Below are positions 2,872 through 16,408 of a stretch of DNA of 32,573 nucleotides, in pieces. Below the pieces are notes generated by a model. That model saw only the letters and a list, made by a program, of their open reading frames with translations. It did no database searches and was not told the origin of the DNA. The position numbers were made by a program, and so were the translations under genes. Every line of letters begins with the position of its first letter. Position 1 is the stretch's first letter. Location: contig JBFZBV010000156.1 of the NCBI GenBank assembly GCA_041308285.1, forward strand, positions 1 to 32,573, in the 5' to 3' direction. The DNA is from Planctomycetota bacterium (GTDB lineage: Bacteria; Planctomycetota; JAKEIC01; DYIT01).

Positions 2872-2898
2872 CGTGAAGTTCCCATCCAGGCACAGGAT

Positions 2899-4604: not shown

Positions 4605-6347
4605 ATGGAAAAACCTGAAGACCTGACTTACGACCCTGAAGGATCGGGCAAGAAACAGCTCGATGATTTCCAGCATCTGACCCGGGAGCTGGTCGGAATC
4701 ATCCGGCAGGGAAGATCTGAGTCCGAATTCATGCCCGGCGTGCTTCGGCTTTTGCTCAACTACTCCGGCAGCGACGAGATATCCTTGCTTCTGGCGCCCG
4801 GCGAAGGTTCCACGAGCTGGACTGCGCGGTGGAGAAACCTGCGGTTCTTCTATTGCGAAGCGATTGCTGCCTCAAAAGCCGCGAAAATCTGGGGGGGAAC
4901 TGAGGGCGTCCACAGCCCGGAATCTCTCAAGGAAATAGTTTCGACCTGCAATGCCGGCCTCGTATCGTCTTGTTTCACGGACAAAGGCAGTTTCTATACC
5001 GGTGATGCAAACGCTCTTTGCGAGTCAATGCCCGATTTGCGCCTCATCTGCGGCGAATTATTCCCCGCCTCGGGAATCAAACCGGGGTCAATCGCCCTGG
5101 TCCCTCTTGCCGCCGGGGAGAAAGAGGCCGGGACGCTGAGATTCGTCGCTCATGAGAAGAATTTCTACTCCAGACCGGAAGTCGAATTCTACGAAAGCCT
5201 GAGCCAGGTTCTTGGCGTTCTCTTCGCTAGCACCAGGACTCAGGCTGCTTTGAGCGAGCGTCTGAAAGAGCTCACCTGTCTATATGGCATTTCAAAGGTC
5301 CTGGAGCAGAAAGGCCTCCTGCATGACCAGGCCCTCAAGCAAATCGCCGACCTTCTGCCTCCTGCCATGCAGTACCCTGAAATAGCCTCGGCAAGGATTT
5401 CCCTCGACGGATTAATCTTTTCGACCAGCGGCTTCAGCTTCGCCAAGGACGTCCTTCCGGCCGACATCATCGTGGGCGGGGAGAGGCGGGGGCTGGTTGA
5501 AATCGCCTATACGGAAATCAAACCCGTTCTTGCCGAAGGCCCGTTCCTGAAGGAGGAGCGGAGTCTCATCGACGCCGTGGCCCGGGAGATTACCTTTTTC
5601 CTGGACCGGAAGAAGGCCGAGGATGACAAAGTCAGCATTCAGAACCATCTGAGGCAGGCCGACAGGCTGGCTACGGTAGGCCAGATTGCCGCGAGCATCG
5701 CTCACGACCTGAACGAGCCGCTGAGCAACATCCTCGGATTCGCGCAACTCGCCGAAAAAGCCAACAACCTGCCGGGACAGGCCGACAAGGACATCAGGAA
5801 AATAATTGAGGCATCTCTGTACGCAAGGGGGATAGTCAAAAAGCTTCTGGGGTTCACCCGACAAGTCCCGATTACCAAAGTCCGGCTGGATCTGAACAAG
5901 GTCATCGACGACAGCCTGTTCCTTTTCGAAAAACGCTGCATGACCGAGGGGATCGAACTTGTGAAGGAGCTGGCCTCGGCGCTCCCGGAAGTCGAGGCGG
6001 ACCAGGTCCAGGCCAACCAAATCCTGGTGAACCTGATGGTCAATGCGATTCAAGCCATGCCTGACGGTGGGAAACTCACCATACGCACGGGATGCCATCC
6101 GGAGCATGTGTTCCTATCGGTCGAGGACACCGGCATCGGCATGGACGATGAGACTCTGAAACACATATTCAATCCTTTTTTCACCACCAAGGAGAAAGGC
6201 GAAGGCACCGGCCTGGGCTTGCCCATGGTTCAGGACATCGTGAAGTCGCACGGCGGGACGATTAAGGTCGATAGCAAGCCGGGGCAGGGATCGAGGTTCG
6301 AGGTGCGTCTTCCCATATTTCACCCCCAGGCAGCGTCGAATCCTTGA
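4605..6347 (+). CDS. Cytoplasmic sensor histidine kinase: GAF-like N-terminal region, a sensor domain with an ELTCLYGIS motif, then HisKA and HATPase_c
   Basis: The H-box is ASIAHDLNEPLSNILGF, the N-box is NLMVNAIQAM, and the G-boxes are EDTGIGMD and GEGTGLGLPMV. I see no obvious TM helix. The start is uncertain because there is no clear RBS. Confidence 0.85.
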   Translation: MEKPEDLTYDPEGSGKKQLDDFQHLTRELVGIIRQGRSESEFMPGVLRLLLNYSGSDEISLLLAPGEGSTSWTARWRNLRFFYCEAIAASKAAKIWGGTEGVHSPESLKEIVSTCNAGLVSSCFTDKGSFYTGDANALCESMPDLRLICGELFPASGIKPGSIALVPLAAGEKEAGTLRFVAHEKNFYSRPEVEFYESLSQVLGVLFASTRTQAALSERLKELTCLYGISKVLEQKGLLHDQALKQIADLLPPAMQYPEIASARISLDGLIFSTSGFSFAKDVLPADIIVGGERRGLVEIAYTEIKPVLAEGPFLKEERSLIDAVAREITFFLDRKKAEDDKVSIQNHLRQADRLATVGQIAASIAHDLNEPLSNILGFAQLAEKANNLPGQADKDIRKIIEASLYARGIVKKLLGFTRQVPITKVRLDLNKVIDDSLFLFEKRCMTEGIELVKELASALPEVEADQVQANQILVNLMVNAIQAMPDGGKLTIRTGCHPEHVFLSVEDTGIGMDDETLKHIFNPFFTTKEKGEGTGLGLPMVQDIVKSHGGTIKVDSKPGQGSRFEVRLPIFHPQAASNP

Positions 6348-6374: not shown

Positions 6375-7721
6375 ATGGCGACTCAGGCGGCCCGGGAGAA
6401 GATTCTCATTGTCGACGACGCCGCGGATACCCGCGAGGTGGTCCAGCGGAACCTGTCCGCGGAAGGATATGAAACCTATTCCGCATCCGGCCCGGAGGAA
6501 GCCCTCGCCTTCCTGGATCATTCGCATGTGGACCTCGTGATAACGGATTTGAAAATGCCCGGAGCCTCCGGGCTGGACATCGTGCGGCACGTCCGCGAGA
6601 ACCTGCCGGGCACTGAAGTCATGATGATTACGGGCTATGCGACAATCGAAGGCGCCGTCGTTGCGGTCAAGACGGGCGCCGAGGAGTACCTGGCGAAGCC
6701 CTTCACGTCCGAGGAGCTTATTGCCGCTGTCCGGAGATCCTTCGCAAAACTGCATCTCAGAAAAGCAGGAAGCGTCCCGGGAGAGAAAAGCATCTCGTCC
6801 ATGTACGGCCTGCTCGGCGCTTCCGATGCGATGAAGGGCGTGTACGGGGCCATCGCCAAGACCGCGCCGACGAACGCCACAATCCTCATCACGGGCGAAA
6901 GCGGCACTGGCAAGGAGCTCGTGGCGAGGGCGATTCACTACTCGAGCCCCAGAGCCTCAGGCCCGTTCGTGCCGGTCAACTGCGGCGGAATCCCGGAGGG
7001 ACTCCTCGAAAGCGAGCTTTTCGGCCATGTGAAGGGCGCTTTCACCGGAGCAGTCGAGTCAAGGGCAGGTTTCTTCCAGACTGCCGAGGGAGGATCAATC
7101 TTCCTGGACGAAATCGGCGAAGTGAGCCTCGCGATGCAGGTGAAACTGCTTCGGGTCCTGCAGGACAGGGAAGTCTGCATGGTGGGCGCGACCAAATCCA
7201 GGAGAGTCGATCTCCGGGTAATCGCCGCGACCAACAAGGACCTGCTCGCCCTCATCAAGAAAGGGATCTTCAGGGAGGACTTGTACTTCAGGCTGAACGT
7301 CATCAGCATCGCCATCCCTCCGCTCAGGGAGAGAGGGGACGACGTGCTCCTCCTCGCCGGCCATTTCTCCAGGAAATTCTCCGAGGAACTCGGCAAGCCT
7401 CCGGCCAGGTTCTCGGATTCCGCGCTCGCTGCCCTGAAGAACTACGACTGGCCGGGGAACGTCAGGGAACTCGAGAACGTGATTCAGAGAGTCGCCCTCT
7501 GGAGCGAGAACAGGGAAGTCAACGCATCTGATCTCCCCTCGCTGATGCGCTTCACCGCCGGCAAGGGCCTGAGCCCCCACCGGACCCTCTCCGAAATGGA
7601 AGCCACCCATATCGCCAACGTCCTGTCGTCGCTGGGCGGAAACAAGACCAGAGCCGCTGAAGTCCTGGGCATAGACAGGAAGACGCTCCGCGAGAAGATG
7701 AAAAGGTACTTGCTCGAATAG
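6375..7721 (+). CDS. Sigma-54-dependent response regulator (NtrC family: REC + AAA+ + Fis-type HTH)
   Basis: The REC domain shows ILIVDD...DLVITDLKMPG. Walker A is GESGTGKE, the GAFTGA loop reads GHVKGAFTGA, and Walker B is FLDEIGE. The C-terminal HTH reads GNKTRAAEVLGIDRKTLREK. A GGAGGA RBS lies 6 nt upstream of the ATG. Confidence 0.93.
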   Translation: MATQAAREKILIVDDAADTREVVQRNLSAEGYETYSASGPEEALAFLDHSHVDLVITDLKMPGASGLDIVRHVRENLPGTEVMMITGYATIEGAVVAVKTGAEEYLAKPFTSEELIAAVRRSFAKLHLRKAGSVPGEKSISSMYGLLGASDAMKGVYGAIAKTAPTNATILITGESGTGKELVARAIHYSSPRASGPFVPVNCGGIPEGLLESELFGHVKGAFTGAVESRAGFFQTAEGGSIFLDEIGEVSLAMQVKLLRVLQDREVCMVGATKSRRVDLRVIAATNKDLLALIKKGIFREDLYFRLNVISIAIPPLRERGDDVLLLAGHFSRKFSEELGKPPARFSDSALAALKNYDWPGNVRELENVIQRVALWSENREVNASDLPSLMRFTAGKGLSPHRTLSEMEATHIANVLSSLGGNKTRAAEVLGIDRKTLREKMKRYLLE

Positions 7722-7930: not shown

Positions 7931-7946
7931 TGGCGCGCCGCGTGCA
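7931..7946 (+). promoter_or_regulatory. Candidate sigma-54 (-24/-12) promoter for the 8069-14874 operon
   Basis: The sequence is TGGCGCGCCGCGTGCA. GG and GC sit at exactly the spacing of the consensus TGGCACG-N4-TTGCA. It lies 123 nt upstream of the first ORF and directly downstream of a sigma-54 activator gene. Confidence 0.5.
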
Positions 7947-8068: not shown

Positions 8069-8392
8069 ATGAGTGCCATATTCTCAATGGAGGGCCCAAG
8101 CGTGTCCGCTTCAAGGAAAATGCCGGGAATTTGCCAAAGCTGCCTTTTCTTCCCTGAGTGCAGCTTGAGGCGGGACAAAGAGACGCCCGTATGTTTCTGC
8201 GAATTGTTCGAATGCACAAGCGATGTCGAATCGAGCGCCAGGGAAATCGATCTCGACCACTGCCCCGGCGATTCCAATCCCGAGTTCTGCGACAGGAGCC
8301 TGAAGGGGCTTTGCATGAACTGCGAGAACAGGACAACCTGCAGGTATCCTCGCCAGGAAGGCGGCGTGTGGCACTGCTCGGACTATAAATAA
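8069..8392 (+). CDS. Small Cys-rich protein (107 aa) with an internal duplication of a G-[IL]-C-x2-C-x5-C-x10/11-C module; putative metal or Fe-S binding
   Basis: A GAGGGGG RBS lies 5 nt before the ATG. The two modules are GICQSCLFFPECSLRRDKETPVCFC and GLCMNCENRTTCRYPRQEGGVWHC. It is the first gene after the -24/-12 element. Confidence 0.6.
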   Translation: MSAIFSMEGPSVSASRKMPGICQSCLFFPECSLRRDKETPVCFCELFECTSDVESSAREIDLDHCPGDSNPEFCDRSLKGLCMNCENRTTCRYPRQEGGVWHCSDYK

Positions 8393-8417
8393 GCGATACC
8401 GCCTGGCGATACCGCCT
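8393..8417. repeat. Tandem direct repeat of a 12-mer, gcgataccgcct, x2 with a 1-nt spacer
   Basis: Exact copies lie at 8393-8404 and 8406-8417, starting immediately after the stop codon (8390-8392) of the Cys-rich ORF. Confidence 0.7.
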
Positions 8418-8450
8418 TCACAACTTTGACGCGATTGGGGTGTTTCAGAA

Positions 8451-9305
8451 ATGAACAAAGAAACAATCGACGGCATCATCGAGAAGCACAAGCACGACAT
8501 GGGCGGCTTGATTTCCGTGCTGGAAGAGGTCCAGGCCAAGTTCGGATATCTCCCCGAAGAATCCCTCCAAGCCGTTTCGGAGGCGTTGAACCGCCCCCTG
8601 GTGGAGGTGTACGGCGTCGCGACTTTCTTCAGGGCTTTCAGCCTCAAGCCCAGGGGAAAGCACCTGGTCTCGGCCTGCGTCGGGACCGCCTGCCACGTGC
8701 GCGGGACCCAGGCGGTCGTGAGGGAGCTGCAACGCGTGCTGGGCGTGAAACCCGGCGAAACCACTCCGGACAAGGAGTTCACCCTGGAGACCGTCGCCTG
8801 CCTGGGCGCATGCGCGCTCGGCCCGATGGTCGTGATTGACGGCCATTTCTTCTCCAAGATGAACCCCTCCAAGGTCAAGGGCGTCATCGAAAAGGCCAGG
8901 GCGGGCCTGGACGCGCCCGAAGGGGGCGAAGACGAAAAGGTCTTCCCCCTCGTGGTCAGATGCCCGCGCTGCAACCACAGCCTCATGGATTCAAGGCACC
9001 CCATCGATGGAAAGCCGTCGATAAAGATCACGGTTTCGTTCGGCGGAAAGCACGGGTGGATTAGGCTGTCGAGCCTCTACGGCAGCTACAAGGTCGACTG
9101 CGAATTCGAAATCCCTTTCGAAACGCTCGTCAATTTCTTCTGCCCCCACTGCCATGCGGAACTGAACGGATCCCAGGAATGCGGCGATTGCAGGGCTCCG
9201 ATGGTGCCTCTCATCGTGGAGGGCGGCGGCATGGTCCAGATTTGCTCCCGCCGCGGCTGCAAATCGCACATGCTCGATCTCGACGGAGTCAATTTCGACA
9301 TGTGA
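8451..9305 (+). CDS. NuoE/HydC-type thioredoxin-like [2Fe-2S] subunit with a ~120-aa C-terminal multi-CxxC (zinc-ribbon-like) extension
   Basis: The N-terminal ~150 aa carry SACVGTACHVRG and VACLGACALGP, the Cx4C...Cx3C cluster ligands of 24-kDa-type subunits. The extension (8943-9302) contains CPRC, CPHC, CGDC and CSRRGC. Confidence 0.85.
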   Translation: MNKETIDGIIEKHKHDMGGLISVLEEVQAKFGYLPEESLQAVSEALNRPLVEVYGVATFFRAFSLKPRGKHLVSACVGTACHVRGTQAVVRELQRVLGVKPGETTPDKEFTLETVACLGACALGPMVVIDGHFFSKMNPSKVKGVIEKARAGLDAPEGGEDEKVFPLVVRCPRCNHSLMDSRHPIDGKPSIKITVSFGGKHGWIRLSSLYGSYKVDCEFEIPFETLVNFFCPHCHAELNGSQECGDCRAPMVPLIVEGGGMVQICSRRGCKSHMLDLDGVNFDM

Positions 9306-9357
9306 TTCGACCCTGTGGCTTTCGCCGGGTCTCTCAACTGTAAGGAAAAGGACTGAC

Positions 9358-12300
9358 ATGGAAATGCTGAAAAGCCCGTTGGATTTCAAGATAATGAGCG
9401 AGCGCGTCAAGGCGGGCGTGGACCCCTCCAAGCCCGTCCTCGTCATCTCCGCCGGCACTTGCGGGCAGGCCTCGGGCGCGAACGACCTGATTAGGATAGC
9501 CAAGAAGGAGTTCCTGAAGCGCGGTCTCGCGGAAACCATGGGGCTCAGGATAACCGGCTGCCAGGGCTGGTGCGAAATGGAGCCCTCGATTCTGGTCGAG
9601 CCGCAGGGGTACTTCTACCCAAAGCTTTCTCCCGGGTCCGTGCCGGAAGTCATCGTCGCCGCGGCGAAGGGCCAGGCTGCGGAAGACCTCGTCTACGCCG
9701 ACCCCGAGACAGGGAAGAGGATTCCCCTGCAGAAAGACATCCCGTTCTTCGCGAACCAGACCAGGCTGATAATCTCGCGCAACGAGAAGGTCGACCCCAT
9801 CCGGATGTTCAACTACGTCGAGACCGGCGGGTACTCATCCCTCTGCAAGGTGATTGAGAAGAACGACAGGAAGTGGGTCGTCGACGAGATAAAGGCGTCC
9901 GGGCTGCGCGGGAGGGGCGGCGCCGGCTTCCCCACGGGCGTCAAATGGGAGCTGCTGAGGGCCCAGCCCGGCGACCGCGGCAAATACATCATCTGCAACG
10001 CCGACGAGGGCGATCCCGGCGCGTACATGAACAGGGCGGTCATCGAAGGCAACCCGCACAGCGTGATAGAAGGCATGATCATCGGCGCGTTCGGCACCGG
10101 CGCGGACCGCGGCATCATCTACGTCCGCGCGGAGTACCCCCTCGCAATCAAGCACCTGATTATCGCCCTCAGGCAGGCGAGGGAGCTCGGCCTCCTCGGC
10201 AAGAACATCCTCGGGTCCGGCTTGGATTTCGACATCGACATCGTCAAGGGGGCGGGCGCGTTCGTGTGCGGAGAGGAGACCGCCCTAATCGCCTCAATCG
10301 AGGGGAGGATGGGCGAGCCGCGCCAGAGGCCGCCGTTCCCTGTGCAGAGGGGCGTGCACGGCAGGCCCACGGCCATCAACAACGTCGAAACCTGGGCGAA
10401 CGTGCCGATAATATTCGACATCGGCGCCGCCGGGTTCTCCAAAATCGGAATGCCGTCGAGCCCGGGCACGAAGATATTCAGCCTCGTCGGAAAGGTCCGG
10501 AACACGGGGCTCGTCGAGGTCCCGCTGGGAATCTCCATCGGGAAAATCATCTACGACATAGGAGGCGGTTCCCGCGGGCCCGGCAGGATAAAAGCCGTGC
10601 AGATGGGCGGGCCTTCGGGAGGCTGCATCCCCTCGGAGAAATTCGACCTCTCCATCGACTACGAGACCATCAAGGCCGCGGGGGCAATCATGGGCTCCGG
10701 CGGCATGATTGTGATGGACCAGGACTCCTGCATGGTGGACCTCGCGAAATACTTCATGAACTTCCTCAAGGACGAGTCCTGCGGGAAGTGCTTCACGTGC
10801 CGCAAGGGCACGCAGCGCATGCACGAAATCATCGACGACATGTCCAGGGGCGAGGGCTCCGAGGCCCGAATCGACCTGCTCGAGGACCTCGCGCTCACGG
10901 TCAGGGACACCACCATGTGCGGCCTCGGGCAGTCGGCTCCCAACCCGGTCCTGAGCACGCTCAGGTATTTCAAGGACGAGTTCAGGAAGCACATCGCCGA
11001 GAAGCGCTGCGATTCCTTCGTGTGCAGGGACCTCACCGGCGCGCCGTGCCAGGCCGCATGCCCCCTCGGCACCGAGCCATGGAGGTACGTGGCATGCATC
11101 GAGAAAGGCGACGTCGAAGGCGCGTGGCTCGCAATCCGCGAACCCAACCCGATGCCGTCCGTGTGCGCGCGCGTCTGCAACCACCCATGCGAAAGCCGCT
11201 GCAGGCTGGGCACCACAGGCTCGGAGCCGATTGCAATCAGGGCGCTGAAGAGGTTCGTCACCGACTCTTCCGACCCGTCGTCGTACACCCCTCCGGACGT
11301 CAGAAAACCCGGATCCTCCGGACGGAAGGCCGCGGTCGTGGGAGGAGGCCCCGCCGGGATTTCCGCGGCCCACTACCTGTCCATCAGGGGCCACGCGGTC
11401 ACGATTTTCGAGGCCGAAGACCGTCTCGGAGGCATGCTCGCATGGGGAATCCCGGAATACCGCCTGCCCCGGGGCGTTCTCGAGAAGGAAATCCAGGCGC
11501 TGCTCCGCAACGGCGTGAAAACGGAGACCGGAAAGGCCCTGGGCCGCGATTTCACCCTCGACTCCCTCGCGAAGGACGGGTTCGACGCCGTGTTCCTCGC
11601 CTTCGGCGCCGGAAAAAGCAGGAAACTCGGTATTCCGGGCGAGGACGCGGACGGCGTCGTGGACGCCCTGGACTTCCTGAAGGCCCACAACCTCCGCGGC
11701 GAGAGCCTCGCAAAAGGCAGGGTCGGCGTCATAGGCGGAGGCAACGCGGCCGTGGACGCGGCCAGGGTCGCCTTGAGGATGGAAGGCGTCAAGTCGGTAT
11801 CGATTCTGTACAGGAGGACCACCGCCGAGATGCCGGCCTTCCGCGAGGAAATCCACGGGGCCCTGGCCGAAGGCGTCGCAATCGTCGAACTCGTCTCGCC
11901 GGTGGAAGCCGAAGCGAAGGGCAGGAACCCGAAGCTGGCCGGAGTGAAACTCCTGAAGAACTCTCTCGGCCCGGTCGATCGAAGCGGCCGCCGCAGCCCC
12001 GTGCCGGTGCCGGGCTCGGAATACAAGATGGCGCTGGACACCCTAATCGTGGCTGCCGGTGAAGAGACCGGGGCCGCGGATTTCCTCGCCAAATCGGTCG
12101 GGATTGCGCCGGGCGGCGCCGTGGCGGCCTCCCCGGACACATTCATGACGTCCAAGCCGGGCGTCTTCGCCGGAGGGGACGCCGCAAGAGGGCCGAGCAC
12201 CGTGGTGAACGCCCTGGCGGACGGCAAGAATGCCGCGGAGTGCATCGACAGGTTCCTCAGGGGCGAAAACCCCGCCATGGAGCGCAAGGCTCCGAAGCCG

Positions 12301-12537
12301 TCGGTCCGCATCGAAGCCCCCGCCTCGGCCGGCGGCGACGTCGAGCCCTCTCCGCGGGCGATTTCCAAGACGCTCGCGCCCAGGCAGAGGCAGGGGAATT
12401 TCAAGGAAATCGAAAAAACCCTCCGCGAGGCGGAAGCCCGCAAAGAGGCTGGGCGCTGCCTGCGCTGCGACCTCGAGTTCTCCGAGTGCACGGATAAAGG
12501 CCAACTGTGTAATGCTGTAGGAACTGAAAAGCCATGA
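9358..12537 (+). CDS. Fusion protein: thioredoxin-like 2Fe-2S domain, NuoF/HydB-type FMN/NADH/[4Fe-4S] domain, and GltD/NfnB-type Fe-S FAD NAD(P)H oxidoreductase
   Basis: NuoF motifs are GLRGRGGAGFPTGVKW, NADEGDPGAY, CGEETALI, ESCGKCFTCRKG and CGLGQS. GltD-type motifs follow: CQAACPLG, VCARVCNHPCESRC, the FAD fold VVGGGPAGISAAHYL and the NAD(P) fold VIGGGNAAVDAARVA. Confidence 0.9.
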   Translation: MEMLKSPLDFKIMSERVKAGVDPSKPVLVISAGTCGQASGANDLIRIAKKEFLKRGLAETMGLRITGCQGWCEMEPSILVEPQGYFYPKLSPGSVPEVIVAAAKGQAAEDLVYADPETGKRIPLQKDIPFFANQTRLIISRNEKVDPIRMFNYVETGGYSSLCKVIEKNDRKWVVDEIKASGLRGRGGAGFPTGVKWELLRAQPGDRGKYIICNADEGDPGAYMNRAVIEGNPHSVIEGMIIGAFGTGADRGIIYVRAEYPLAIKHLIIALRQARELGLLGKNILGSGLDFDIDIVKGAGAFVCGEETALIASIEGRMGEPRQRPPFPVQRGVHGRPTAINNVETWANVPIIFDIGAAGFSKIGMPSSPGTKIFSLVGKVRNTGLVEVPLGISIGKIIYDIGGGSRGPGRIKAVQMGGPSGGCIPSEKFDLSIDYETIKAAGAIMGSGGMIVMDQDSCMVDLAKYFMNFLKDESCGKCFTCRKGTQRMHEIIDDMSRGEGSEARIDLLEDLALTVRDTTMCGLGQSAPNPVLSTLRYFKDEFRKHIAEKRCDSFVCRDLTGAPCQAACPLGTEPWRYVACIEKGDVEGAWLAIREPNPMPSVCARVCNHPCESRCRLGTTGSEPIAIRALKRFVTDSSDPSSYTPPDVRKPGSSGRKAAVVGGGPAGISAAHYLSIRGHAVTIFEAEDRLGGMLAWGIPEYRLPRGVLEKEIQALLRNGVKTETGKALGRDFTLDSLAKDGFDAVFLAFGAGKSRKLGIPGEDADGVVDALDFLKAHNLRGESLAKGRVGVIGGGNAAVDAARVALRMEGVKSVSILYRRTTAEMPAFREEIHGALAEGVAIVELVSPVEAEAKGRNPKLAGVKLLKNSLGPVDRSGRRSPVPVPGSEYKMALDTLIVAAGEETGAADFLAKSVGIAPGGAVAASPDTFMTSKPGVFAGGDAARGPSTVVNALADGKNAAECIDRFLRGENPAMERKAPKPSVRIEAPASAGGDVEPSPRAISKTLAPRQRQGNFKEIEKTLREAEARKEAGRCLRCDLEFSECTDKGQLCNAVGTEKP

Positions 12538-13211
12538 TTAAACTCTGGATTAACGATTTGCCGGTGGAAGTGGAGGAGGGGACGACCATCCTGGAGGCCG
12601 CCGATTTCCTCAACTTCCCCATACCGACCCTCTGCCACAAGGACGGCCTGTCCCCTTACGGCGCATGCCGGCTCTGCATGGTGGAAATCGGCGAAGGCGC
12701 CAGGGCGAGGCTCGTGTCCTCATGCACCTACCCGGCCGAGAACGGCCTCAAGGTGAGGACCGCCTCGGAGCGGGTGGTCAAGGCGAGGAAGATGGTCATC
12801 GAGCTGCTGCTCGCCACGTGCCCGCAGTCCAAGGTCATCCAGGACATCGCGTCGGAGTACGGCGTGAAGCAGCAGCGTTTCAAGCAGGAATACGACGACT
12901 GCATCCTGTGCGGGCTGTGCGTGCGCATGTGCAAGGAGCAGATGATGGCCGGGGCCATCGGGTTCCGCGGCAGGGGAGAACGGAGGAGCATCGGAACCCC
13001 CTTCGACCGGGCCTCGGAAATCTGCAGGCTCTGCGGCGGATGCATATACGTCTGCCCGGCCTGCACGCTCAGGTGCACCTTCACGGAACCCGAGAAGGCC
13101 GTGTGCGGCGGCTGCGCCAACCTCGAGCCGCCGTGCATCGAGAAGGAGCAGTTCCACGACATGATGTGCTACATGAAGCCATGCGTCGCCTGCGAGATAA
13201 AGAAGGAGTGA
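12534..13211 (+). CDS. NuoG/HydA N-terminal-like Fe-S protein (plant-type 2Fe-2S plus two CxxCxxCxxxC(P) 4Fe-4S motifs plus an extra C-terminal Cys cluster). No catalytic domain.
   Basis: The 2Fe-2S ligands are CHKDGLSPYGACRLC...SSC. The ferredoxin-type motifs are CILCGLCVRMC and CRLCGGCIYVCP. The tail reads CGGCANLEPPC...CYMKPCVAC. An ATGA overlaps the upstream stop (12534-12537). Confidence 0.85.
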   Translation: MIKLWINDLPVEVEEGTTILEAADFLNFPIPTLCHKDGLSPYGACRLCMVEIGEGARARLVSSCTYPAENGLKVRTASERVVKARKMVIELLLATCPQSKVIQDIASEYGVKQQRFKQEYDDCILCGLCVRMCKEQMMAGAIGFRGRGERRSIGTPFDRASEICRLCGGCIYVCPACTLRCTFTEPEKAVCGGCANLEPPCIEKEQFHDMMCYMKPCVACEIKKE

Positions 13212-13284
13212 AACGACCCCCTCCGGCAAGCGGAGATTGGGCGTATTCCGGATGTAAACCGCTCTAAATGGAGGATGATTGAAT

Positions 13285-14874
13285 ATGACCTCGCCAATTT
13301 CCAAAGTCAATTCATCGGCCGCCACGCTCACCAAGAACAGGACCGAAGGCTCCGTGGTCCCGGCGTCCGGCATGTGCGTCACCTGCGTCGACGGGTGCAT
13401 CGGCATGTGCGAAATCGGCAAGTCGGCGTTCAGGGGGCACGAGGTGATCTACCCCCAGCCGTTCGGAGTCATCACGACTGCCGGGGAGAAGCGCTACCCC
13501 GTCGATTACTCCCATTTCAACATAATGGGATCGTGCGTAGGCGCCCATGGAATCGAAGCGAGCAGCGAGAAGGCCATCTTCCCCGCCGTCAACCTGGAGG
13601 TCAGGTTCGGGCACGACAAGGGCATCAAGTTCCGCCTGCCTTGGATAATCCCGGGCATCGGATCGACCAACATCGCCAAGAACAACTGGGAAGGCATCGC
13701 CATCGGCGCCGCAACGGCAGGCGTTGGCCTCACAATCGGCGAGAACGTGGTGGGCATGGACCCGCAGGCGAAGTTCGAAAAGGGCAAGGCCGTGGATACG
13801 GCGGACCTCAAGCGGAGGGTCGCCCTCTACAAGGACAACCAGATTGACGGTTTCGGCGCGATTGTCGTCCAGGCCAACGTAGAGGACACCATGCTCGGCA
13901 CCCAGGAGTACGCAATCAAGCACCTCGGCGTCCAGTGCGTGGAGCTCAAGTGGGGCCAGGGCGCGAAGGACATCGGCGGCGAGGTGAAGATTAAGGAGCT
14001 CAAGAAAGCCCAGCTCCTGCAGGAGAGGGGATACATCGTCCTGCCCGACCCCACGGACCCGAACGTGATAAAATCCCACGAAAGGGGCAGTTTCAAGGAA
14101 TTCGAGCGGCATTCCAGGGTGGGCATGGTCTCCGAGGAGAGCTTCGCCAAGAGGGTGGAGGAGCTGAGGAAAGCGGGCGCGAAGTACGTGTTCCTCAAGA
14201 CCGGAGCCTACAGGCCCGCCGATCTCGCACTCGCCGTGAAGTTCGCCTCCAAGTACAAGCTCGACCTCCTGACCGTCGACGGCGCCGGCGGCGGAACCGG
14301 AATGAGCCCGTGGCGCATGATGAACGAATGGGGCGTGCCGCCCGTCGAACTCCACTCGATGCTCTACTACTGCGCTAAGACCCTCGTCGACAAGGGCGAA
14401 TATCTCCCCGCCCTGGCCGTCGCGGGCGGGTTCACGTTCGAAGACCAGATATTCAAGGGCCTCGCCCTCGGCGCCCCGTACGTCAAGCTCGTCGGCATGG
14501 CCAGGGGCCCGATTTGCGCTGCAATGGTCGGCAAGACGATTGGCAGGGCCATCGAGGACCACCAGCTGCCCGTCTACGTGGAGAGGTTCGGCGGGAGCAA
14601 GGACGAGATTTTCGTCTCCGCCGGCGAGCTGAGGCACAAGCTCGGGGACGACAAGTTCGAAAAGATGCCTCCGGGCGCAATCGGACTCTACACCTACTAC
14701 GAGCGCCTCGCGCAGGGGCTCAGGCAGCTCATGGCAGGATCCAGGAAATTCGGCCTCGAGCACATGACCCGCAATGATCTGGCGTCCCTGACGGTCGAGG
14801 CCTCGGAAATATCCGGAATCCCCTACATCATGGACCTCGACAAGGCGGAGGTAGAGAAAATCCTCTCGAAATGA
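13285..14874 (+). CDS. GltB-domain-2-type FMN-binding 'glutamate synthase family' subunit with an N-terminal CxxCx3Cx3C motif
   Basis: ELKWGQGAKDIGGE and LTVDGAGGGTGMSPW match the FMN-domain motifs of glutamate synthase large subunits. The N-terminal Cys motif is CVTCVDGCIGMC. The ATG at 13285 lies 9 nt after GGAGGA. The ORF track starts 6 nt earlier, at TTG 13279. Confidence 0.85.
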   Translation: MTSPISKVNSSAATLTKNRTEGSVVPASGMCVTCVDGCIGMCEIGKSAFRGHEVIYPQPFGVITTAGEKRYPVDYSHFNIMGSCVGAHGIEASSEKAIFPAVNLEVRFGHDKGIKFRLPWIIPGIGSTNIAKNNWEGIAIGAATAGVGLTIGENVVGMDPQAKFEKGKAVDTADLKRRVALYKDNQIDGFGAIVVQANVEDTMLGTQEYAIKHLGVQCVELKWGQGAKDIGGEVKIKELKKAQLLQERGYIVLPDPTDPNVIKSHERGSFKEFERHSRVGMVSEESFAKRVEELRKAGAKYVFLKTGAYRPADLALAVKFASKYKLDLLTVDGAGGGTGMSPWRMMNEWGVPPVELHSMLYYCAKTLVDKGEYLPALAVAGGFTFEDQIFKGLALGAPYVKLVGMARGPICAAMVGKTIGRAIEDHQLPVYVERFGGSKDEIFVSAGELRHKLGDDKFEKMPPGAIGLYTYYERLAQGLRQLMAGSRKFGLEHMTRNDLASLTVEASEISGIPYIMDLDKAEVEKILSK

Positions 14875-14959
14875 CGGCCGTCGGCCGGATGCGTCGATTG
14901 CGCGGCCGGCACGGAGAAAATCGCATCAAAATACAGGTGAGTGGTAGTTTGATGCTCGG

Positions 14960-14987
14960 GGGGCGGCGAAAGCCGCCCCTCTTTTTT
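14960..14987 (+). terminator. Rho-independent terminator of the 8069-14874 operon
   Basis: An 8-bp GC stem pairs ggggcggc (14960-14967) with gccgcccc (14972-14979) around a GAAA tetraloop. A T6 run follows at 14982-14987. Confidence 0.8.
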
Positions 14988-15139
14988 CCCCCGGCCGGAC
15001 CGAATATAATCGCGGCGCGATGCAGGCTCGAATCGGGCGGCCGGCCGGTCCGCCGCCTGCGCAGCGTTGCCGCTCCCGGGAGCGCGTTCGCCGGCCCGGC
15101 GGCCGCCCGGAGGCCGGCGGCTTCGGAGGATTCCTTCGC

Positions 15140-16408
15140 GTGACGTTCAACGCCGTCGCAATCGCGGTACTCGCGGCCGTGCTCGCTGATTTCGCCGTCC
15201 GGAACGCGGCGCTCGTGCTCAACCTGCGAGGATTCCCTGCCGGGATTCCCCCCGAGATTGGGGGCTTCGTCGACCCGGAGACGCACCGCAGGACGGGCGA
15301 ATACCTGGCCGTGAAGATGAAGTATCTGCTCGCCTCCTCGGCCTTCGACACGGCGCTGCTTCTCTGCTTCTGGTTCGCCGGGGGGTTCGGGATTCTGGAC
15401 ACGCTCGTCAGGAGCCTCGGAGCGGGATCGGTGGTCTCGGGCGTCCTGTACATCGGCGCGCTGTTCGCGGGGCAGCAAATCGTGTCGCTGCCGTGGGGCG
15501 CCTACTTCACGTTCGTAGTCGAAAACCGCTTCGGGTTCAACAAGTCGACCCGTGCGACCTTCGCAGGCGACTTCCTCAAGGGCGCGGCAATCTACGCGGT
15601 CATCGGCGTTCCCGCACTGGCCGGGGTGCTCGCCATCTTCGAGTACGCGGGCGGCTGGGCCTGGGCCCTCTGCTGGGCCGCCACTTCGGCCTTTTCCCTC
15701 GCCTTCGGCTTCGTGTATCCCGTTCTTATTCTGCCCCTGTTCAACAGGCTCACTCCCATGCCCGAGGGGCCCTTGAGGAAGGGCATACTGGATTACGCCG
15801 CCCGCACGGGATACGCGGTCAGGGACGTATTCGTGATGGACGGATCCAGGAGATCAGGCCACACCAACGCCTTCGTCGTCGGATTCGGCAGGTTCCGCAA
15901 AATCGCCCTGTTCGACACGATGATAGCGAAGCACGAGATCCCGGAGCTCGTGGGAATCGTCGCGCACGAGGTCGGGCACTGGAAGCTCGGGCACGCCAAA
16001 AGGCACATGGCCGTCGGATTCGTCCGGACCGGAATCATGTTCCTGCTGCTCGGACTCGTTCTCGGGAGCAGGGAGCTTTTCTCCGCGTTCGGAATCGAGG
16101 CGCTCTCCGCCGGCGCGGGACTCGTGCTGTTCGGCATAGTGTTCTCCCCCGTGACGACCGCGACCGGCGTCCTGTTCAACGCAATGCGCAGAAGGCGGGA
16201 ATACGAGGCCGACCGCTTCGCGGGCCTCACCACCGGCGACCCGGAGGCGCTCGCGGCCGGTCTCGTCAAGATGAACGTGCACAACCTGTCGAACTTCTTC
16301 CCACACAGGCTAGCGGTCCTGCTCTACGGCACCCATCCGCCCACTCTCGACCGCGTCCGCGCCCTTCGGGCGCTCAGTACTCCTCCCCTCCCATCACTGA
16401 AACAGTGA
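15140..16408 (+). CDS. Ste24/CAAX-prenyl-protease-type M48 zinc metalloprotease (multi-pass membrane)
   Basis: The HEXXH motif is IVAHEVGHWKLGH, with EYEADRF downstream and several hydrophobic helices. The GTG at 15140 lies 9 nt after GGAGGA. The 40 upstream codons of the track ORF (from 15020) are Arg/Pro/Gly junk. Confidence 0.85.
   Translation: MTFNAVAIAVLAAVLADFAVRNAALVLNLRGFPAGIPPEIGGFVDPETHRRTGEYLAVKMKYLLASSAFDTALLLCFWFAGGFGILDTLVRSLGAGSVVSGVLYIGALFAGQQIVSLPWGAYFTFVVENRFGFNKSTRATFAGDFLKGAAIYAVIGVPALAGVLAIFEYAGGWAWALCWAATSAFSLAFGFVYPVLILPLFNRLTPMPEGPLRKGILDYAARTGYAVRDVFVMDGSRRSGHTNAFVVGFGRFRKIALFDTMIAKHEIPELVGIVAHEVGHWKLGHAKRHMAVGFVRTGIMFLLLGLVLGSRELFSAFGIEALSAGAGLVLFGIVFSPVTTATGVLFNAMRRRREYEADRFAGLTTGDPEALAAGLVKMNVHNLSNFFPHRLAVLLYGTHPPTLDRVRALRALSTPPLPSLKQ

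What the first reader, a model, noticed from the sequence alone, without database searches (positions are those of the whole stretch)
8069..14874. Sigma-54-driven operon joins a NuoE/NuoF/NuoG-N electron-input module to GltD and a stand-alone GltB-type FMN subunit, with no hydrogenase, FDH or amidotransferase domain
Seen in sequence:
- Five same-strand ORFs have short gaps or an ATGA overlap (12534-12537). They are bracketed by a -24/-12 element (7931-7946) and a strong terminator (14960-14987).
- The products are a Cys-rich 107-aa protein, a NuoE-like 2Fe-2S protein, a NuoF::GltD fusion, a NuoG-N-terminal-like poly-Fe-S protein that ends before any catalytic domain, and a GltB-domain-2 FMN protein.

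Established knowledge:
- NuoE/F/G-N modules are the NADH input or bifurcating module of complex I, HydABC hydrogenases and NAD-linked formate dehydrogenases.
- GltD plus GltB form glutamate synthase, and GltD homologues form Nfn and sulfide-dehydrogenase-type enzymes.

Unusual points:
- The only candidate catalytic subunit is a GltB FMN domain.
- The glutamine amidotransferase and GXGXG domains that glutamate synthase needs are missing from the window.

Inference: this is a multi-flavin (FMN-FAD-FMN) Fe-S complex. It may couple NADH, NAD(P)H and possibly ferredoxin to a 2-oxoacid/imine-type reduction. That could be an ammonia-dependent or otherwise non-canonical glutamate-synthase-like reaction. 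The location next to gdhA and an NtrC-type pair fits a nitrogen-assimilation role. I do not know of a characterised enzyme with this exact subunit set.
Basis: partly seen in the sequence, partly recalled or inferred. Interest (0 to 1): 0.82.

Follow-up and report, generated by a model that had tools for sequence, protein, structure and literature searches.

The report
Bifurcase-type module wired to glutamate-synthase-like flavoprotein
This operon encodes an uncharacterised enzyme, widespread and very conserved in anaerobic sediment bacteria, that joins the NADH/ferredoxin electron-splitting module known from bifurcating hydrogenases to a stand-alone flavoprotein related to the glutamate-forming domain of glutamate synthase, so it may be an unrecognised route between ammonia, 2-oxoglutarate and glutamate.

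Summary
**Observation.** It is confirmed. The five ORFs, their domains, the -24/-12 element, the terminator and the lack of amidotransferase and GXGXG domains are all real.

**The NuoEFG-like genes.** They are Bfu/HydABC-type rather than complex-I type.
- ORF2 is BfuC.
- ORF3 is BfuB with the diagnostic B2-site ligands.
- ORF4 is a short BfuA of the WorA type.

**ORF5.** It is a remote relative of the GltS FMN domain. It keeps the QGAK and DGxGGTGxSP motifs, lacks the [3Fe-4S] cysteines, and has its own N-terminal four-Cys motif.

**Conservation.**
- The cassette occurs in at least 595 species genomes across many phyla.
- BfuC, BfuB, ORF4 and ORF5 are adjacent wherever the contig allows.
- ORF4 and ORF5 stay about 80% identical between phyla.
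- Sigma-54 promoters and the kinase/regulator pair are also conserved.

The GltD module is optional: 14 of 76 loci carry a normal BfuB with a ferredoxin-like end. The BfuB::GltD fusion is already described for hydrogenases.

**Link to glutamate.** Glutamate dehydrogenase genes recur beside the cassette. They also sit beside an F420-module::ORF5-like fusion.

**Best reading.** A new Bfu-type enzyme that reduces 2-oxoglutarate plus free ammonia to glutamate, or runs in reverse. The chemistry is untested, and no paper describing this subunit set was found.

The parts
2899..4257 (-). gdhA, an NADP-specific glutamate dehydrogenase. It is an associated neighbour, not part of the operon.
   Evidence: - Pfam: ELFV_dehydrog 1.7e-83.
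- NCBIfam NF006929: 734 bits against a cut-off of 536.
- GDH genes lie next to or inside the cassette in 9 of 82 related loci.
- GDH genes also lie next to the FrhB::ORF5-like fusion in L089.
4605..6347 (+). Cytoplasmic sensor histidine kinase. It has a weak GAF domain, an unnamed sensor domain of about 125 aa (residues 209-337), and HisKA + HATPase_c.
   Evidence: - Pfam.
- Found upstream of the cassette in most related loci at 40-55% identity.
- The sensor domain is shared with PPDK_N proteins encoded downstream of ORF5 in other loci.
6375..7721 (+). Sigma-54-dependent response regulator (REC + AAA+ Sigma54_activat + HTH_8).
   Evidence: - Pfam: Sigma54_activat 1.5e-68.
- 60-68% identical upstream of the cassette in related loci.
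- Below every NCBIfam equivalog cut-off, with AtoC and NtrC as the best matches.
7931..7946 (+). Sigma-54 -24/-12 promoter element, TGGCGC-N5-GTGCA.
   Evidence: - Read directly from the sequence.
- Matches 9 of 11 consensus positions.
- Elements with 9 or more matches lie upstream of ORF1/bfuC in 40 of 56 loci, against 7 of 168 coding control windows.
8069..8392 (+). ORF1, a small Cys-rich protein with two repeats of C-x2-C-x5-C-x13-C-E-x-F/Y. It is probably a metal or Fe-S protein; its role is unknown.
   Evidence: - 48 homologues lie in the same position in related loci, and all eight Cys are conserved.
- No Pfam, NCBIfam or PDB match.
8451..9305 (+). ORF2, BfuC/HydC-type [2Fe-2S] subunit (Cys 76, 81, 117, 121) with an extra C-terminal double zinc-ribbon-like extension (residues about 170-284).
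   Evidence: - Pfam 2Fe-2S_thioredx 8.7e-48; weak Zn-ribbon hits.
- Best PDB match is 7T2R_C, BfuC of the NiFe-Bfu enzyme, at 1.8e-44.
- Cys positions.
9358..12537 (+). ORF3, BfuB/HydB-type NADH-FMN subunit. It has an N-terminal Trx-like domain, the B1 [4Fe-4S] motif and the B2 site (C458/S496/H545/C551/C556). Its usual C-terminal 2x[4Fe-4S] domain is replaced by a complete GltD/NfnA-type module (2x[4Fe-4S] + FAD + NAD(P)H sites).
   Evidence: - Pfam and NCBIfam.
- PDB: 7T2R_B 3.4e-193, NfnB 9N5U_B 4.4e-181, complex I NuoF about 1e-99. The GltD half is closest to NfnA/StnC (9BOV_A 1.8e-107).
- Ligand mapping from the alignment, combined with Schut 2022.
- Short variants end in a ferredoxin-like domain.
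12534..13211 (+). ORF4, a short BfuA with no catalytic domain. It has a [2Fe-2S] site (C34/45/48/64), two [4Fe-4S] motifs, and a tail with 8 further conserved Cys. It is the likely adaptor to ORF5.
   Evidence: - Pfam Fer2_4 and Fer4_7.
- Best PDB match is 9MQX_A, the 247-aa WorA of WorABCSL, at 2.1e-37.
- 72-82% identical across phyla.
- Exactly 8 extra Cys in 59 of 62 homologues.
13279..14874 (+). ORF5, a stand-alone FMN TIM-barrel protein remotely related to the GltS synthase domain. The likely true start is the ATG at 13285. It has an invariant N-terminal C33-x2-C36-x3-C40-x3-C44 motif and is the presumed catalytic subunit.
   Evidence: - Pfam PF01645 1.3e-12.
- hhalign against 77 GltB FMN domains: probability 72%, E 3.4e-5, with the QGAK, DGxGGTGxSP and GG...LGA motifs aligned and the 3Fe-4S Cys absent.
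- AF2 model with pLDDT 84.9. Foldseek hits FMN TIM barrels, including GltS 7MFM_G.
- More than 8000 clusters (90%-identity protein clusters, the tool's scoring cap) match, and the 120 best listed are 77-89% identical.
14958..14991 (+). Intrinsic terminator closing the operon.
   Evidence: 10-pair stem (9 G-C), 4-nt loop, followed by TTTTTT.

Best explanation
**What the operon encodes.** ORF1-ORF5 form a sigma-54-controlled operon for a new member of the Bfu (HydABC-type) family of flavin/iron-sulfur electron-bifurcating enzymes.

**Shown by sequence and comparison**
- ORF2 is BfuC.
- ORF3 is BfuB. It carries the NADH/FMN site and the B1 and B2 sites.
- ORF4 is a short, catalytically empty BfuA of the WorA type.
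- ORF5 is a stand-alone FMN TIM-barrel protein with the GltS-synthase motifs and an N-terminal four-Cys motif.
- ORF4 and ORF5 are the invariant, most conserved pair.
- In this window, and in 62 of 76 related loci, the ferredoxin-facing 2x[4Fe-4S] end of BfuB is replaced by a GltD/NfnA-type FAD-NAD(P)H module. In the other 14 loci the normal end is kept.

**Inferred**
- *Assembly.* ORF5 docks on the Cys-rich tail of ORF4, as WorS docks on WorA.
- *Electron path.* Electrons pass between the BfuB FMN and the ORF5 FMN through the ORF4 clusters and the ORF5 N-terminal cluster.
- *Reaction.* The third substrate couple is 2-oxoglutarate + free NH3 / L-glutamate, via 2-iminoglutarate reduced by FMNH2, with no glutaminase step.
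- *Electron donors.* The short form is driven by NADH plus reduced ferredoxin. The long form uses NADH plus NAD(P)H entering through the GltD module.
- *Physiological role.* The likely direction is reductive (glutamate-forming, assimilatory). It would be switched on by the adjacent kinase/regulator pair and would work alongside NADP-GDH.
For: **Bfu identity**
- Best solved-structure matches are BfuB, BfuC and WorA rather than complex I.
- The B2-site ligands C458, S496, H545, C551 and C556 are present, and the H-x5-C-x4-C motif occurs in 59 of 65 homologues.
- Short variants have the canonical BfuB architecture.

**Evidence that the products form a complex**
- BfuC, BfuB, ORF4 and ORF5 are adjacent in every locus that is long enough.
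- The ORF3/ORF4 stop and start codons overlap.
- ORF4 and ORF5 are both about 80% identical across phyla, while BfuC is about 57%.
- ORF4 has 8 extra conserved Cys and ORF5 has four N-terminal Cys.
- In the WorA precedent, the C-terminal part of WorA recruits the next subunit (PMC12318220).

**GltS-like chemistry**
- Pfam PF01645 match.
- hhalign against GltB FMN domains over 394 columns, with QGAK, DGxGGTGxSP and GG..LGA aligned. QGAK is present in 74 of 74 homologues.
- The intermediate sequence P0230 carries QGAKPGMGGE.
- Foldseek hits GltS 7MFM_G with the highest TM-score normalised to the query.

**Link to glutamate**
- GDH genes lie inside or beside the cassette in 9 related loci plus this window, in at least three different arrangements and in several phyla.
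- Two GDH genes lie directly upstream of a Fer4-FrhB::ORF5-like fusion.
- This fits the earlier prediction of F420-dependent GltS in methanogens (PMC3448663).

**No glutaminase.** No GATase or GXGXG domain was found in the window or in 84 loci.

**Regulation.** Sigma-54 elements occur in 40 of 56 loci against 7 of 168 controls, and the enhancer-binding regulator is adjacent.
Against: **No direct evidence**
- There is no biochemical or expression evidence of any kind.
- The ORF5-GltS relationship is remote. Sequence and profile searches of the PDB find nothing, and hhalign probability is only 72%.
- Foldseek scores lactate and glycolate oxidases as well as it scores GltS, so the substrate could be another 2-oxo, 2-hydroxy or imino acid.

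**Weak points in the GltS reading**
- Alignment of the GltS substrate-binding Arg is ambiguous.
- The [3Fe-4S] site of GltS is absent.
- Canonical GltS uses tunnelled ammonia, and free-ammonia activity is normally poor (my knowledge).

**Weak points in the glutamate link**
- GDH adjacency holds for only about 13% of loci.
- An NADP-GDH next door would duplicate the proposed reaction.

**Weak points in the bifurcation reading**
- The 2-oxoglutarate/glutamate couple is much more positive than classical Bfu third substrates unless ammonium is scarce (inference).
- In the long form the B3/B4 ferredoxin branch is missing, so true bifurcation with ferredoxin is doubtful there.
- The N-terminal [2Fe-2S] (B5) site of ORF3 has only three Cys plus a Ser.

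**Sampling bias.** The 80 loci are those most similar to ORF5.
Confidence: 0.5

Rival explanations
1. The Bfu-type complex is the same, but ORF5 acts on a different substrate. Candidates are another 2-oxo acid or amino acid, a 2-hydroxy acid, a cyclic imine, or something unrelated. The GDH neighbours would then reflect only general amino-acid metabolism.
For: - Foldseek places FMN-dependent lactate and glycolate oxidases level with GltS.
- Only part of ORF5 matches PF01645.
- The substrate-binding Arg cannot be aligned with confidence.
- 87% of loci have no GDH nearby.
- Stand-alone relatives sit in unrelated contexts.
Against: - The motifs are of the GltS type: QGAK and DGxGGTGxSP.
- GDH is the only metabolic enzyme that recurs next to two independent ORF5-family architectures.
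Confidence: 0.25
2. The complex runs in the catabolic direction. ORF5 oxidises glutamate taken from peptide degradation and passes the electrons into the Bfu core, together with or in exchange for ferredoxin or NADP(H).
For: - The hosts named in the record titles are anaerobic sediment heterotrophs.
- Bfu enzymes are reversible (PMC9304861).
- Control by an inducible two-component system is typical of catabolic operons.
- In B. subtilis, GDH and GltS form a 'counter-enzyme' pair (7MFM; bioRxiv 10.1101/2021.04.12.439528, listed).
Against: - Glutamate oxidation cannot reduce both NAD+ and ferredoxin at ordinary concentrations (my thermodynamic estimate).
- The neighbouring GDH in this window is of the NADP-specific, usually assimilatory type.
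Confidence: 0.1
3. ORF5 is the FMN subunit of a split, archaeal-style glutamine-dependent glutamate synthase. Its amidotransferase and GXGXG subunits would be encoded elsewhere in the genome.
For: - Split GltS genes exist in archaea (my knowledge).
- FGltS was predicted as a glutamine-dependent enzyme (PMC3448663).
- The rest of these genomes could not be searched.
Against: - No GATase or GXGXG gene lies within 10 kb in the 84 loci or in the window, nor in L089.
- The cassette moves between phyla as a unit without such genes.
Confidence: 0.08
4. ORF2-4 form an Nfn/Stn-like NADH/NADPH (ferredoxin) transhydrogenase on their own. ORF5 would be merely a co-transcribed, independent enzyme.
For: - ORF3 carries both an NADH-FMN site and an NfnA-type NADP(H)-FAD module.
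- An NADP-specific GDH lies nearby.
Against: - 14 of 76 loci lack the GltD module yet keep ORF4 and ORF5.
- ORF4 and ORF5 are the most conserved and strictly adjacent pair.
- A BfuA with no catalytic domain needs a partner.
- The long form lacks the B3/B4 ferredoxin branch that Nfn-Bfu uses.
Confidence: 0.07

Closest known systems
Bfu (HydABC-type) electron-bifurcating family with a short BfuA and an extra catalytic subunit, e.g. WorABCSL (PDB 9MQX; PMC12318220) and NiFe-Bfu (7T2R)
   Same: - A BfuC + BfuB core with the B2 His/Cys site.
- A short BfuA carrying [2Fe-2S] and 2x[4Fe-4S] and a Cys-rich C-terminal part.
- The catalytic site lies on a separate subunit encoded downstream.
   Different: - The catalytic subunit is an FMN TIM barrel of the GltS type, not a tungstopterin or NiFe protein.
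- BfuC has a double zinc-ribbon tail.
- An additional small Cys-rich ORF1 is present.
- In this window BfuB has lost B3/B4 and gained a GltD module.
Nfn-Bfu / Stn transhydrogenases (NfnABC 9N5U, 9BOV; StnABC 8OH5)
   Same: A GltD-type FAD-NADP(H) module with 2x[4Fe-4S] is attached to a Bfu core. The GltD half of ORF3 is most similar to NfnA/StnC.
   Different: - In those enzymes GltD is fused to BfuA and is itself the third-substrate site.
- Here it is fused to the C-terminus of BfuB in place of B3/B4.
- Here it is optional (62 of 76 loci).
- Here a further catalytic subunit (ORF5) exists.
Sub-type I BfuABC [FeFe]-hydrogenases of Hydrogenedentota and other phyla (PMC11406978)
   Same: The same BfuB architecture: the B3/B4 domain is replaced by DPD_II (2x[4Fe-4S]) plus an FAD/NAD(P) domain.
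   Different: - Their BfuA carries an H-cluster, so they are hydrogenases.
- Here BfuA is truncated and the partner is ORF5.
- Neither system has been characterised biochemically.
NADPH-dependent glutamate synthase GltBD (and Fd-GltS)
   Same: - An FMN TIM-barrel synthase site with the QGAK / DGGTGxSP motifs.
- In the long form, a GltD-type NADPH-FAD-2x[4Fe-4S] input.
   Different: - No amidotransferase domain, central domain or GXGXG domain.
- No [3Fe-4S] motif.
- ORF5 has no sequence-level hit to any GltS structure.
- GltD is not required in the family.
Putative F420H2-dependent glutamate synthase (FGltS) of methanogens (PMC3448663), and the Fer4-FrhB::ORF5-like fusion P0230
   Same: - A stand-alone GltS-type FMN module is coupled to an exchangeable electron-input module.
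- P0230 is 39% identical to ORF5 and sits next to two GDH genes.
   Different: - The input module is an F420H2 dehydrogenase (FrhB type), not a Bfu core.
- It is also uncharacterised.
- It was predicted to be glutamine-dependent.
B. subtilis GltAB-GudB counter-enzyme complex (PDB 7MFM)
   Same: A functional pairing of a GltS-type enzyme with a glutamate dehydrogenase. 7MFM_G is the GltS structure hit by the ORF5 model.
   Different: - That is a physical complex of canonical GltAB with a catabolic GDH.
- Here only gene adjacency is seen, in about 13% of loci.

Membership tests
Bfu (HydABC-type) bifurcating enzymes | A BfuB that is closer to bifurcating HydB/BfuB than to complex I NuoF, with an FMN/NADH domain and the B1 [4Fe-4S] motif. 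| tested here: met
   - 7T2R_B 3.4e-193 against NuoF at about 1e-99.
- C475/C478/C481/C521 present.
Bfu (HydABC-type) bifurcating enzymes | B2 site: His plus Cys ligands (C438, C/T476, H525, C531, C536 in A. mobile numbering). The His is absent from non-bifurcating homologues. | tested here: met
   - ORF3 has C458, S496, H545, C551 and C556 at the aligned positions.
- H-x5-C-x4-C occurs in 59 of 65 cassette homologues.
- Ser occupies the Cys/Thr position.
Bfu (HydABC-type) bifurcating enzymes | B3/B4: a C-terminal 2x[4Fe-4S] ferredoxin-like domain on BfuB, which forms the ferredoxin branch. | tested here: not met
   - In this window the domain is replaced by the GltD Fer4_20 + FAD module.
- The feature is met in the 14 short-variant loci.
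Bfu (HydABC-type) bifurcating enzymes | B5: an N-terminal thioredoxin-like [2Fe-2S] on BfuB with four Cys. | tested here: inconclusive
   The domain is present, but only C35, C68 and C72 are found. Ser31 stands where A. mobile has the first Cys.
Bfu (HydABC-type) bifurcating enzymes | A BfuC with the C1 [2Fe-2S], and a BfuA N-terminal cluster domain. | tested here: met
   - ORF2 Cys 76/81/117/121; 7T2R_C 1.8e-44.
- ORF4 matches WorA 9MQX_A at 2.1e-37.
- ORF4 lacks the His-ligated cluster motif.
Bfu (HydABC-type) bifurcating enzymes | Tightly coupled three-substrate (NAD, ferredoxin, third substrate) bifurcating activity. | not testable with these tools
   Needs anaerobic enzymology.
Glutamate synthase (GltS / GOGAT) | An FMN synthase domain with the conserved FMN and substrate motifs. 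| tested here: met
   - PF01645 above its cut-off, but partial.
- hhalign E 3.4e-5 with QGAK, DGxGGTGxSP and GG..LGA aligned.
- The relationship is remote: no PDB sequence hit.
Glutamate synthase (GltS / GOGAT) | A PurF-type glutamine amidotransferase domain feeding ammonia through a tunnel. | tested here: not met
   Absent from ORF5, from the window and from 84 related loci.
Glutamate synthase (GltS / GOGAT) | A [3Fe-4S] cluster in the FMN domain, and a C-terminal GXGXG domain. | tested here: not met
   - No Cys at the aligned 3Fe-4S positions.
- No GXGXG (PF01493) match.
Glutamate synthase (GltS / GOGAT) | A GltD beta subunit as the obligatory electron donor. | tested here: not met
   A GltD module is present here as a fusion to BfuB, but it is absent from 14 of 76 loci with no GltD gene within 10 kb.
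Sigma-54-dependent operon with a cognate enhancer-binding protein | A -24 GG / -12 GC element upstream, and an adjacent AAA+ sigma-54 activator. | tested here: met
   - Element at 7931-7946.
- Conserved in 40 of 56 loci against 7 of 168 controls.
- Regulator Sigma54_activat 1.5e-68.
- Transcription itself was not tested.
NtrBC nitrogen regulators | Orthology to NtrB/NtrC. | tested here: not met
   - The regulator scores 433 bits against the TIGR01818 cut-off of 558.6, and AtoC scores equally well.
- The kinase core is AtoS/ZraS-like and its sensor part is unrelated to NtrB.

The most novel reading that the evidence does not exclude
The cassette encodes an electron-confurcating, ammonia-dependent glutamate synthase. 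Reduced ferredoxin (or NADPH) plus NADH would drive direct reductive amination of 2-oxoglutarate at low ammonium without spending ATP. That would make it a third route of ammonium assimilation beside GDH and GS-GOGAT, widespread in energy-starved anaerobic sediment bacteria, and a new third substrate for the Bfu family.
Probability: 0.3. Interest if true: 0.9.

Novelty: new variant of a known kind. Interest (0 to 1): 0.72.

Why it matters
**For the Bfu family.** Bfu enzymes are known to be modular. Schut et al. (2022) left 17 BfuB clades without an assigned function. This cassette gives one concrete unassigned type with a clear candidate catalytic subunit.

**Scale and conservation**
- It is present in at least 595 species-level genomes of Planctomycetota, Zixibacteria, Acidobacteriota, Bacteroidota/Ignavibacteria, Latescibacterota, Verrucomicrobiota, Desulfobacterota-type MAGs and an anammox MAG.
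- Its catalytic pair is conserved at about 80% identity between phyla.

**If the substrate couple is 2-oxoglutarate + NH3 / glutamate**
- It links low-potential electron carriers directly to the central node of nitrogen assimilation.
- It would change how nitrogen and redox budgets are reconstructed from anaerobe genomes, where the gene is currently labelled only 'FMN-binding glutamate synthase family protein'.

**A natural experiment.** The paired long (GltD) and short (ferredoxin-domain) forms show what the B3/B4 branch of Bfu enzymes does, which is an open mechanistic question.

Tried and rejected
**Searches that found nothing**
- Sequence and profile searches of the PDB with ORF5 found nothing meaningful.
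- tblastn with the four parts of E. coli GltB found nothing in the window or the loci. It did not even pick up ORF5, so it is only a test for canonical GATase and GXGXG domains.
- No NCBIfam model matches ORF5 or ORF1.
- ORF1, the ORF5 N-terminus and the ORF4 tail have no Pfam or PDB match.
- All ten allowed literature searches failed to find this subunit set. The supplement of Schut 2022 was also searched for glutamate and taxon terms, without result.

**Analyses that had to be redone**
- The first AlphaFold run, on 31 near-identical sequences, gave a poor model (pLDDT 58). Adding divergent relatives fixed it.
- Global hhalign of ORF5 against GltB failed. Single-sequence hhalign was weak. Only local profile-profile alignment worked.
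- A strict regular expression for the sigma-54 element found only 13 of 51 loci. It was replaced by a position-count score with coding-region controls.

**Uninformative or rejected**
- Genomic contexts of stand-alone divergent relatives (P0121, P0122, P0124, P0125, P0131, P0133) told nothing about function.
- An alpha-hydroxy-acid oxidase identity was considered and rejected because the motifs are of the GltS type. That the oxidases use a His-containing catalytic motif, SNHGGRQ, at the position of DGxGGTG is from my memory and was not tested here.
- A complex I NADH module and an NtrBC orthologue were also considered and rejected.

Full report
**1. Checking the observation**

- 8069-8392 (107 aa)
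- 8451-9305 (284 aa)
- 9358-12537 (1059 aa)
- 12534-13211 (225 aa)
- 13279-14874 (531 aa)

The gaps between them are 58, 52 and 67 nt, and ORF3 and ORF4 overlap by ATGA. The public record calls ORF5 as 529 aa, from the ATG at 13285.

The HMM scans support every domain call:
- ORF2 is a thioredoxin-like [2Fe-2S] NuoE/HoxE-type protein.
- ORF3 is NuoF (Complex1_51K + NADH_4Fe-4S) followed by GltD (Fer4_20 + Pyr_redox_2).
- ORF4 has a NuoG/HoxU-type N-terminal [2Fe-2S] plus two [4Fe-4S] motifs and nothing else.
- ORF5 matches Pfam Glu_synthase only over residues 283-404 (E 1.3e-12).
- ORF1 matches nothing.

The other stated features also hold:
- The -24/-12 element TGGCGC-N5-GTGCA lies at 7931-7946.
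- A strong terminator lies at 14958-14981.
- The upstream genes are a histidine kinase and a sigma-54 response regulator. gdhA lies divergently upstream and passes NCBIfam's cut-off for NADP-specific GDH.
- No amidotransferase or GXGXG domain occurs anywhere in the window.

**2. The cassette elsewhere**

ORF5 has more than 8000 database clusters as relatives (90%-identity protein clusters, the tool's scoring cap). The 120 best listed are 77-89% identical, and the organism names that accompany them span many phyla. A scan of one genome per species found at least 595 genomes with a relative. The best 80 are all MAGs:
- Planctomycetota, including an anammox Scalindua
- Zixibacteria
- Acidobacteriota
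- Bacteroidota, Ignavibacteria and Chlorobi
- Latescibacterota
- Verrucomicrobiota
- Deltaproteobacteria-type MAGs, including Smithella and Syntrophorhabdus

Using the window's proteins against 84 fetched loci gave these results:
- BfuC, BfuB, ORF4 and ORF5 are adjacent and in the same order wherever the contig is long enough.
- The kinase and regulator lie upstream in most loci.
- ORF1 has 48 positional homologues. Two C-x2-C-x5-C-x13-C-E-x-F/Y repeats are conserved.
- Sigma-54 elements with 9 or more of 11 consensus positions lie upstream of the operon in 40 of 56 loci, against 7 of 168 same-length coding control windows.

Conservation is very uneven across the cassette:

| Protein | Identity across loci |
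|---|---|
| ORF5 | median 81% between phyla, 83% within phyla |
| ORF4 | about 80% |
| BfuB N-terminal half | 67-72% |
| BfuC | about 57% |
| ORF1 | 25-40% |

So the ORF4 + ORF5 pair is the constrained core. The cassette also shows almost no taxonomic structure.

**3. What the 'Nuo' genes are**

Searches against solved structures place ORF3 with bifurcating BfuB/HydB, not complex I:

| Match | E-value |
|---|---|
| A. mobile NiFe-Bfu BfuB (7T2R_B) | 3.4e-193 |
| NfnB (9N5U_B) | 4.4e-181 |
| HydB | about 1e-175 |
| NuoF | about 1e-99 |

I mapped the alignment onto the ligands listed by Schut et al. 2022 (PMC9304861). ORF3 has the B2-site residues C458, S496 (the Cys/Thr position), H545, C551 and C556. 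According to that paper, the His is the mark of bifurcating BfuB.

The other two subunits fit the same family:
- ORF2 is closest to BfuC (7T2R_C, 1.8e-44). It carries an extra double zinc-ribbon-like tail.
- ORF4 is closest to 9MQX_A (2.1e-37). This is the 247-aa WorA of the tungsten aldehyde oxidoreductase WorABCSL. It is a short BfuA whose C-terminal zinc finger and helix recruit the next subunit (PMC12318220).
- After its second [4Fe-4S] motif, ORF4 has eight further Cys. They are conserved in 59 of 62 homologues.

**4. The GltD module is optional and not new**

In 14 of 76 loci the BfuB gene is only about 1.88 kb. There it ends in a canonical 2x[4Fe-4S] ferredoxin-like domain, and no GltD gene lies within 10 kb. 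In the window's long form, GltD therefore replaces the B3/B4 domain. Current models treat B3/B4 as the ferredoxin branch.

The same BfuB::DPD_II-FAD architecture has been described bioinformatically for 'sub-type I' BfuABC [FeFe]-hydrogenases (PMC11406978). The GltD half of ORF3 is most similar to the NADP(H) modules of NfnA and StnC.

**5. What ORF5 is**

ORF5 has no sequence-level hit in the PDB, even with a profile. An exhaustive search of 1.84 billion representative proteins found only 1068 related clusters, and only a handful of full-length ones at 30-54% identity. The family is compact and isolated in sequence space.

*Structure.* An AlphaFold model built with these divergent relatives is good (pLDDT 84.9). 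Foldseek finds FMN TIM barrels:
- Lactate monooxygenase and glycolate oxidase hit at about 1e-9.
- GltS (7MFM_G) hits at 3e-9 and has the highest query-normalised TM-score (0.48).

*Profile alignment.* Local profile-profile alignment against 77 GltB FMN domains gives E 3.4e-5 over 394 columns. The aligned motifs are:

| ORF5 | GltB |
|---|---|
| PGIGS..NWEGIAIGAA..GEN | MS.GALS.EAHEALA..GEGGE |
| KWGQGAKDIGGE | KVAQGAKPGEGG |
| TVDGAGGGTGMSP | IAGYDGGTGASP |
| AVAGGF...KGLALGA | QVDGGL...KAAILGA |

The GltB [3Fe-4S] cysteines have no counterpart in ORF5.

*Motif conservation.* QGAK is present in 74 of 74 cassette homologues. An N-terminal C-x2-C-x3-C-x3-C motif is present in 71 of 74. From memory, the Gln and Lys of QGAK are catalytic or substrate-binding residues of GltS. 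I could not verify the residue numbering in the papers I read.

**6. The link to glutamate**

I clustered all flanking ORFs of 82 loci. Besides the cassette itself, only two families recur.

*GdhA-type glutamate dehydrogenase* occurs in 9 loci, plus this window:
- directly downstream of ORF5 in three loci
- between the regulator and bfuC in four loci
- nearby in two loci
- divergently upstream in this window

This holds for both long and short forms and for several phyla. My rough estimate is that a single-copy gene would fall within 10 kb in about 0.4 of 82 loci by chance.

*PPDK_N-domain proteins* lie directly downstream in 11 loci.

An independent case points the same way. P0230 is a representative-library hit and a Fer4-FrhB/FdhB (F420 module)::ORF5-like fusion. 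It is 39% identical to ORF5 and carries the motif QGAKPGMGGE. Its gene is preceded by two GDH genes and a small ferredoxin, again with no GATase or GXGXG gene. This matches the earlier prediction of F420-dependent glutamate synthases in methanogens (PMC3448663). It also shows that this FMN module is used with interchangeable electron-input modules.

Stand-alone relatives at 40-54% identity lack any partner genes.

**7. Mechanism**

*Shown.* The operon encodes a Bfu core, a catalytically empty WorA-like BfuA and a GltS-like FMN protein. All are co-conserved and under conserved sigma-54 control.

*Inferred.*
- ORF5 docks on the ORF4 tail.
- Electrons flow between the BfuB FMN and the ORF5 FMN through the ORF4 clusters and the ORF5 N-terminal cluster.
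- The ORF5 site converts 2-oxoglutarate + free NH3 to glutamate through 2-iminoglutarate, or runs the reverse reaction.
- The short form couples this to NADH and ferredoxin. The long form couples it to NADH and NAD(P)H.

*A thermodynamic argument (my own estimate, not a tool result).* The standard potential of the couple, about -0.14 V, is far above the roughly -0.4 V typical of Bfu third substrates. With high glutamate and micromolar ammonium it falls towards -0.3 to -0.35 V. Confurcation of NADH and reduced ferredoxin could then give high-affinity ammonium assimilation without the ATP that GS-GOGAT spends.

This is attractive but untested. Section 8 gives the arguments against it.

**8. Arguments against**
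- The homology to GltS is remote.
- Hydroxy-acid oxidases match the fold equally well.
- GDH adjacency covers only about 13% of loci.
- An NADP-GDH next door would duplicate the proposed reaction.
- The long form lacks the ferredoxin branch.
- The N-terminal [2Fe-2S] site of ORF3 has three Cys plus a Ser.
- The kinase and regulator are generic NtrC-class proteins, not NtrBC orthologues.
- The sampled loci are those most similar to ORF5.

**9. Comparison with what is known, and novelty**

The system works like a Bfu enzyme with an added catalytic subunit, the WorABCSL or NiFe-Bfu style. It meets the BfuB, BfuC and BfuA tests and the B2 test. In this window it fails the B3/B4 test.

It is not a glutamate synthase in the family sense. 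The GATase domain, the [3Fe-4S] site, the GXGXG domain and an obligatory GltD all fail.

Ten full-text searches found no paper on this subunit set, and a search of the Schut 2022 supplement found nothing either. Schut et al. state that 17 BfuB clades have no assigned function.

**Verdict.** I rate this a new variant of a known kind. It has real interest because of its breadth, its extreme conservation and its position at the redox/nitrogen interface. I score interest at 0.72.

Noticed in passing
window 5229-5615 (kinase residues 209-337); L038 11734-12130; L001 11726-12140: An unnamed domain of about 125 aa, with the motif 'KELxCLY...LPP..Q.PE...ARI', lies in the kinase sensor region. It is shared with the N-terminus of PPDK_N-domain proteins (BLASTP 1e-18, 34% identity). 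Some of these also carry a C-terminal nucleotidyltransferase domain. They are encoded directly downstream of ORF5 in 11 related loci. The domain may be a common ligand sensor tied to this cassette.
   Followed up: partly
window 12534-14874 and loci L001-L084: ORF4 and ORF5 are about 80% identical between phyla, almost the same as within phyla (81.0 against 82.8% for ORF5). BfuC in the same operons is about 57% identical. No explanation was established. Possibilities are extreme constraint (large interfaces or an oligomer) and/or frequent transfer of the cassette between phyla.
   Followed up: partly
L089 4355-10403: An 800-aa fusion of a 2x[4Fe-4S] ferredoxin domain, an FrhB/FdhB F420-binding module and an ORF5-like FMN domain lies directly downstream of two GDH genes and a small ferredoxin. 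PylB/C/D-like genes lie upstream. It is a probable F420-dependent counterpart of the window's enzyme.
   Followed up: partly
window 8393-8418: Two tandem copies of a 13-nt unit (GCGATACCGCCTG / GCGATACCGCCTT) lie immediately after the ORF1 stop codon, in the ORF1-ORF2 spacer. The terminator scan flagged the region only on the minus strand.
   Followed up: no
window 8958-9305 (ORF2 residues about 170-284): The BfuC homologue carries a C-terminal extension of about 115 aa with CxxC pairs (weak double zinc-ribbon hits). Solved BfuC/HydC proteins (154-189 aa) lack it. It is conserved in the short-variant locus L034.
   Followed up: partly
window 12457-12511 (ORF3 residues 1034-1051): A further C-x2-C-x6-C-x6-C motif lies at the extreme C-terminus of ORF3, after the GltD FAD/NAD(P)H domains. 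It falls within the region that aligns to NfnA.
   Followed up: no
window 16374-21515 (-) and 21675-25541 (-): A 1713-aa protein with FG-GAP repeats and a transglutaminase-like core is followed by a 1288-aa ORF with no Pfam match. They are unrelated to the operon. In KSB1 locus L001 a transglutaminase-core protein also lies a few genes downstream of the cassette.
   Followed up: no
window 26155-27519 (+): A single ORF fuses a low-molecular-weight phosphotyrosine phosphatase / arsenate-reductase-type domain (LMWPc) to a PNP_UDP_1 nucleoside phosphorylase domain.
   Followed up: no
window 44-2914 (+): A 956-aa ORF in a 66% GC region has no Pfam match at E below 1e-5. It was not checked whether this is a real gene.
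   Followed up: no
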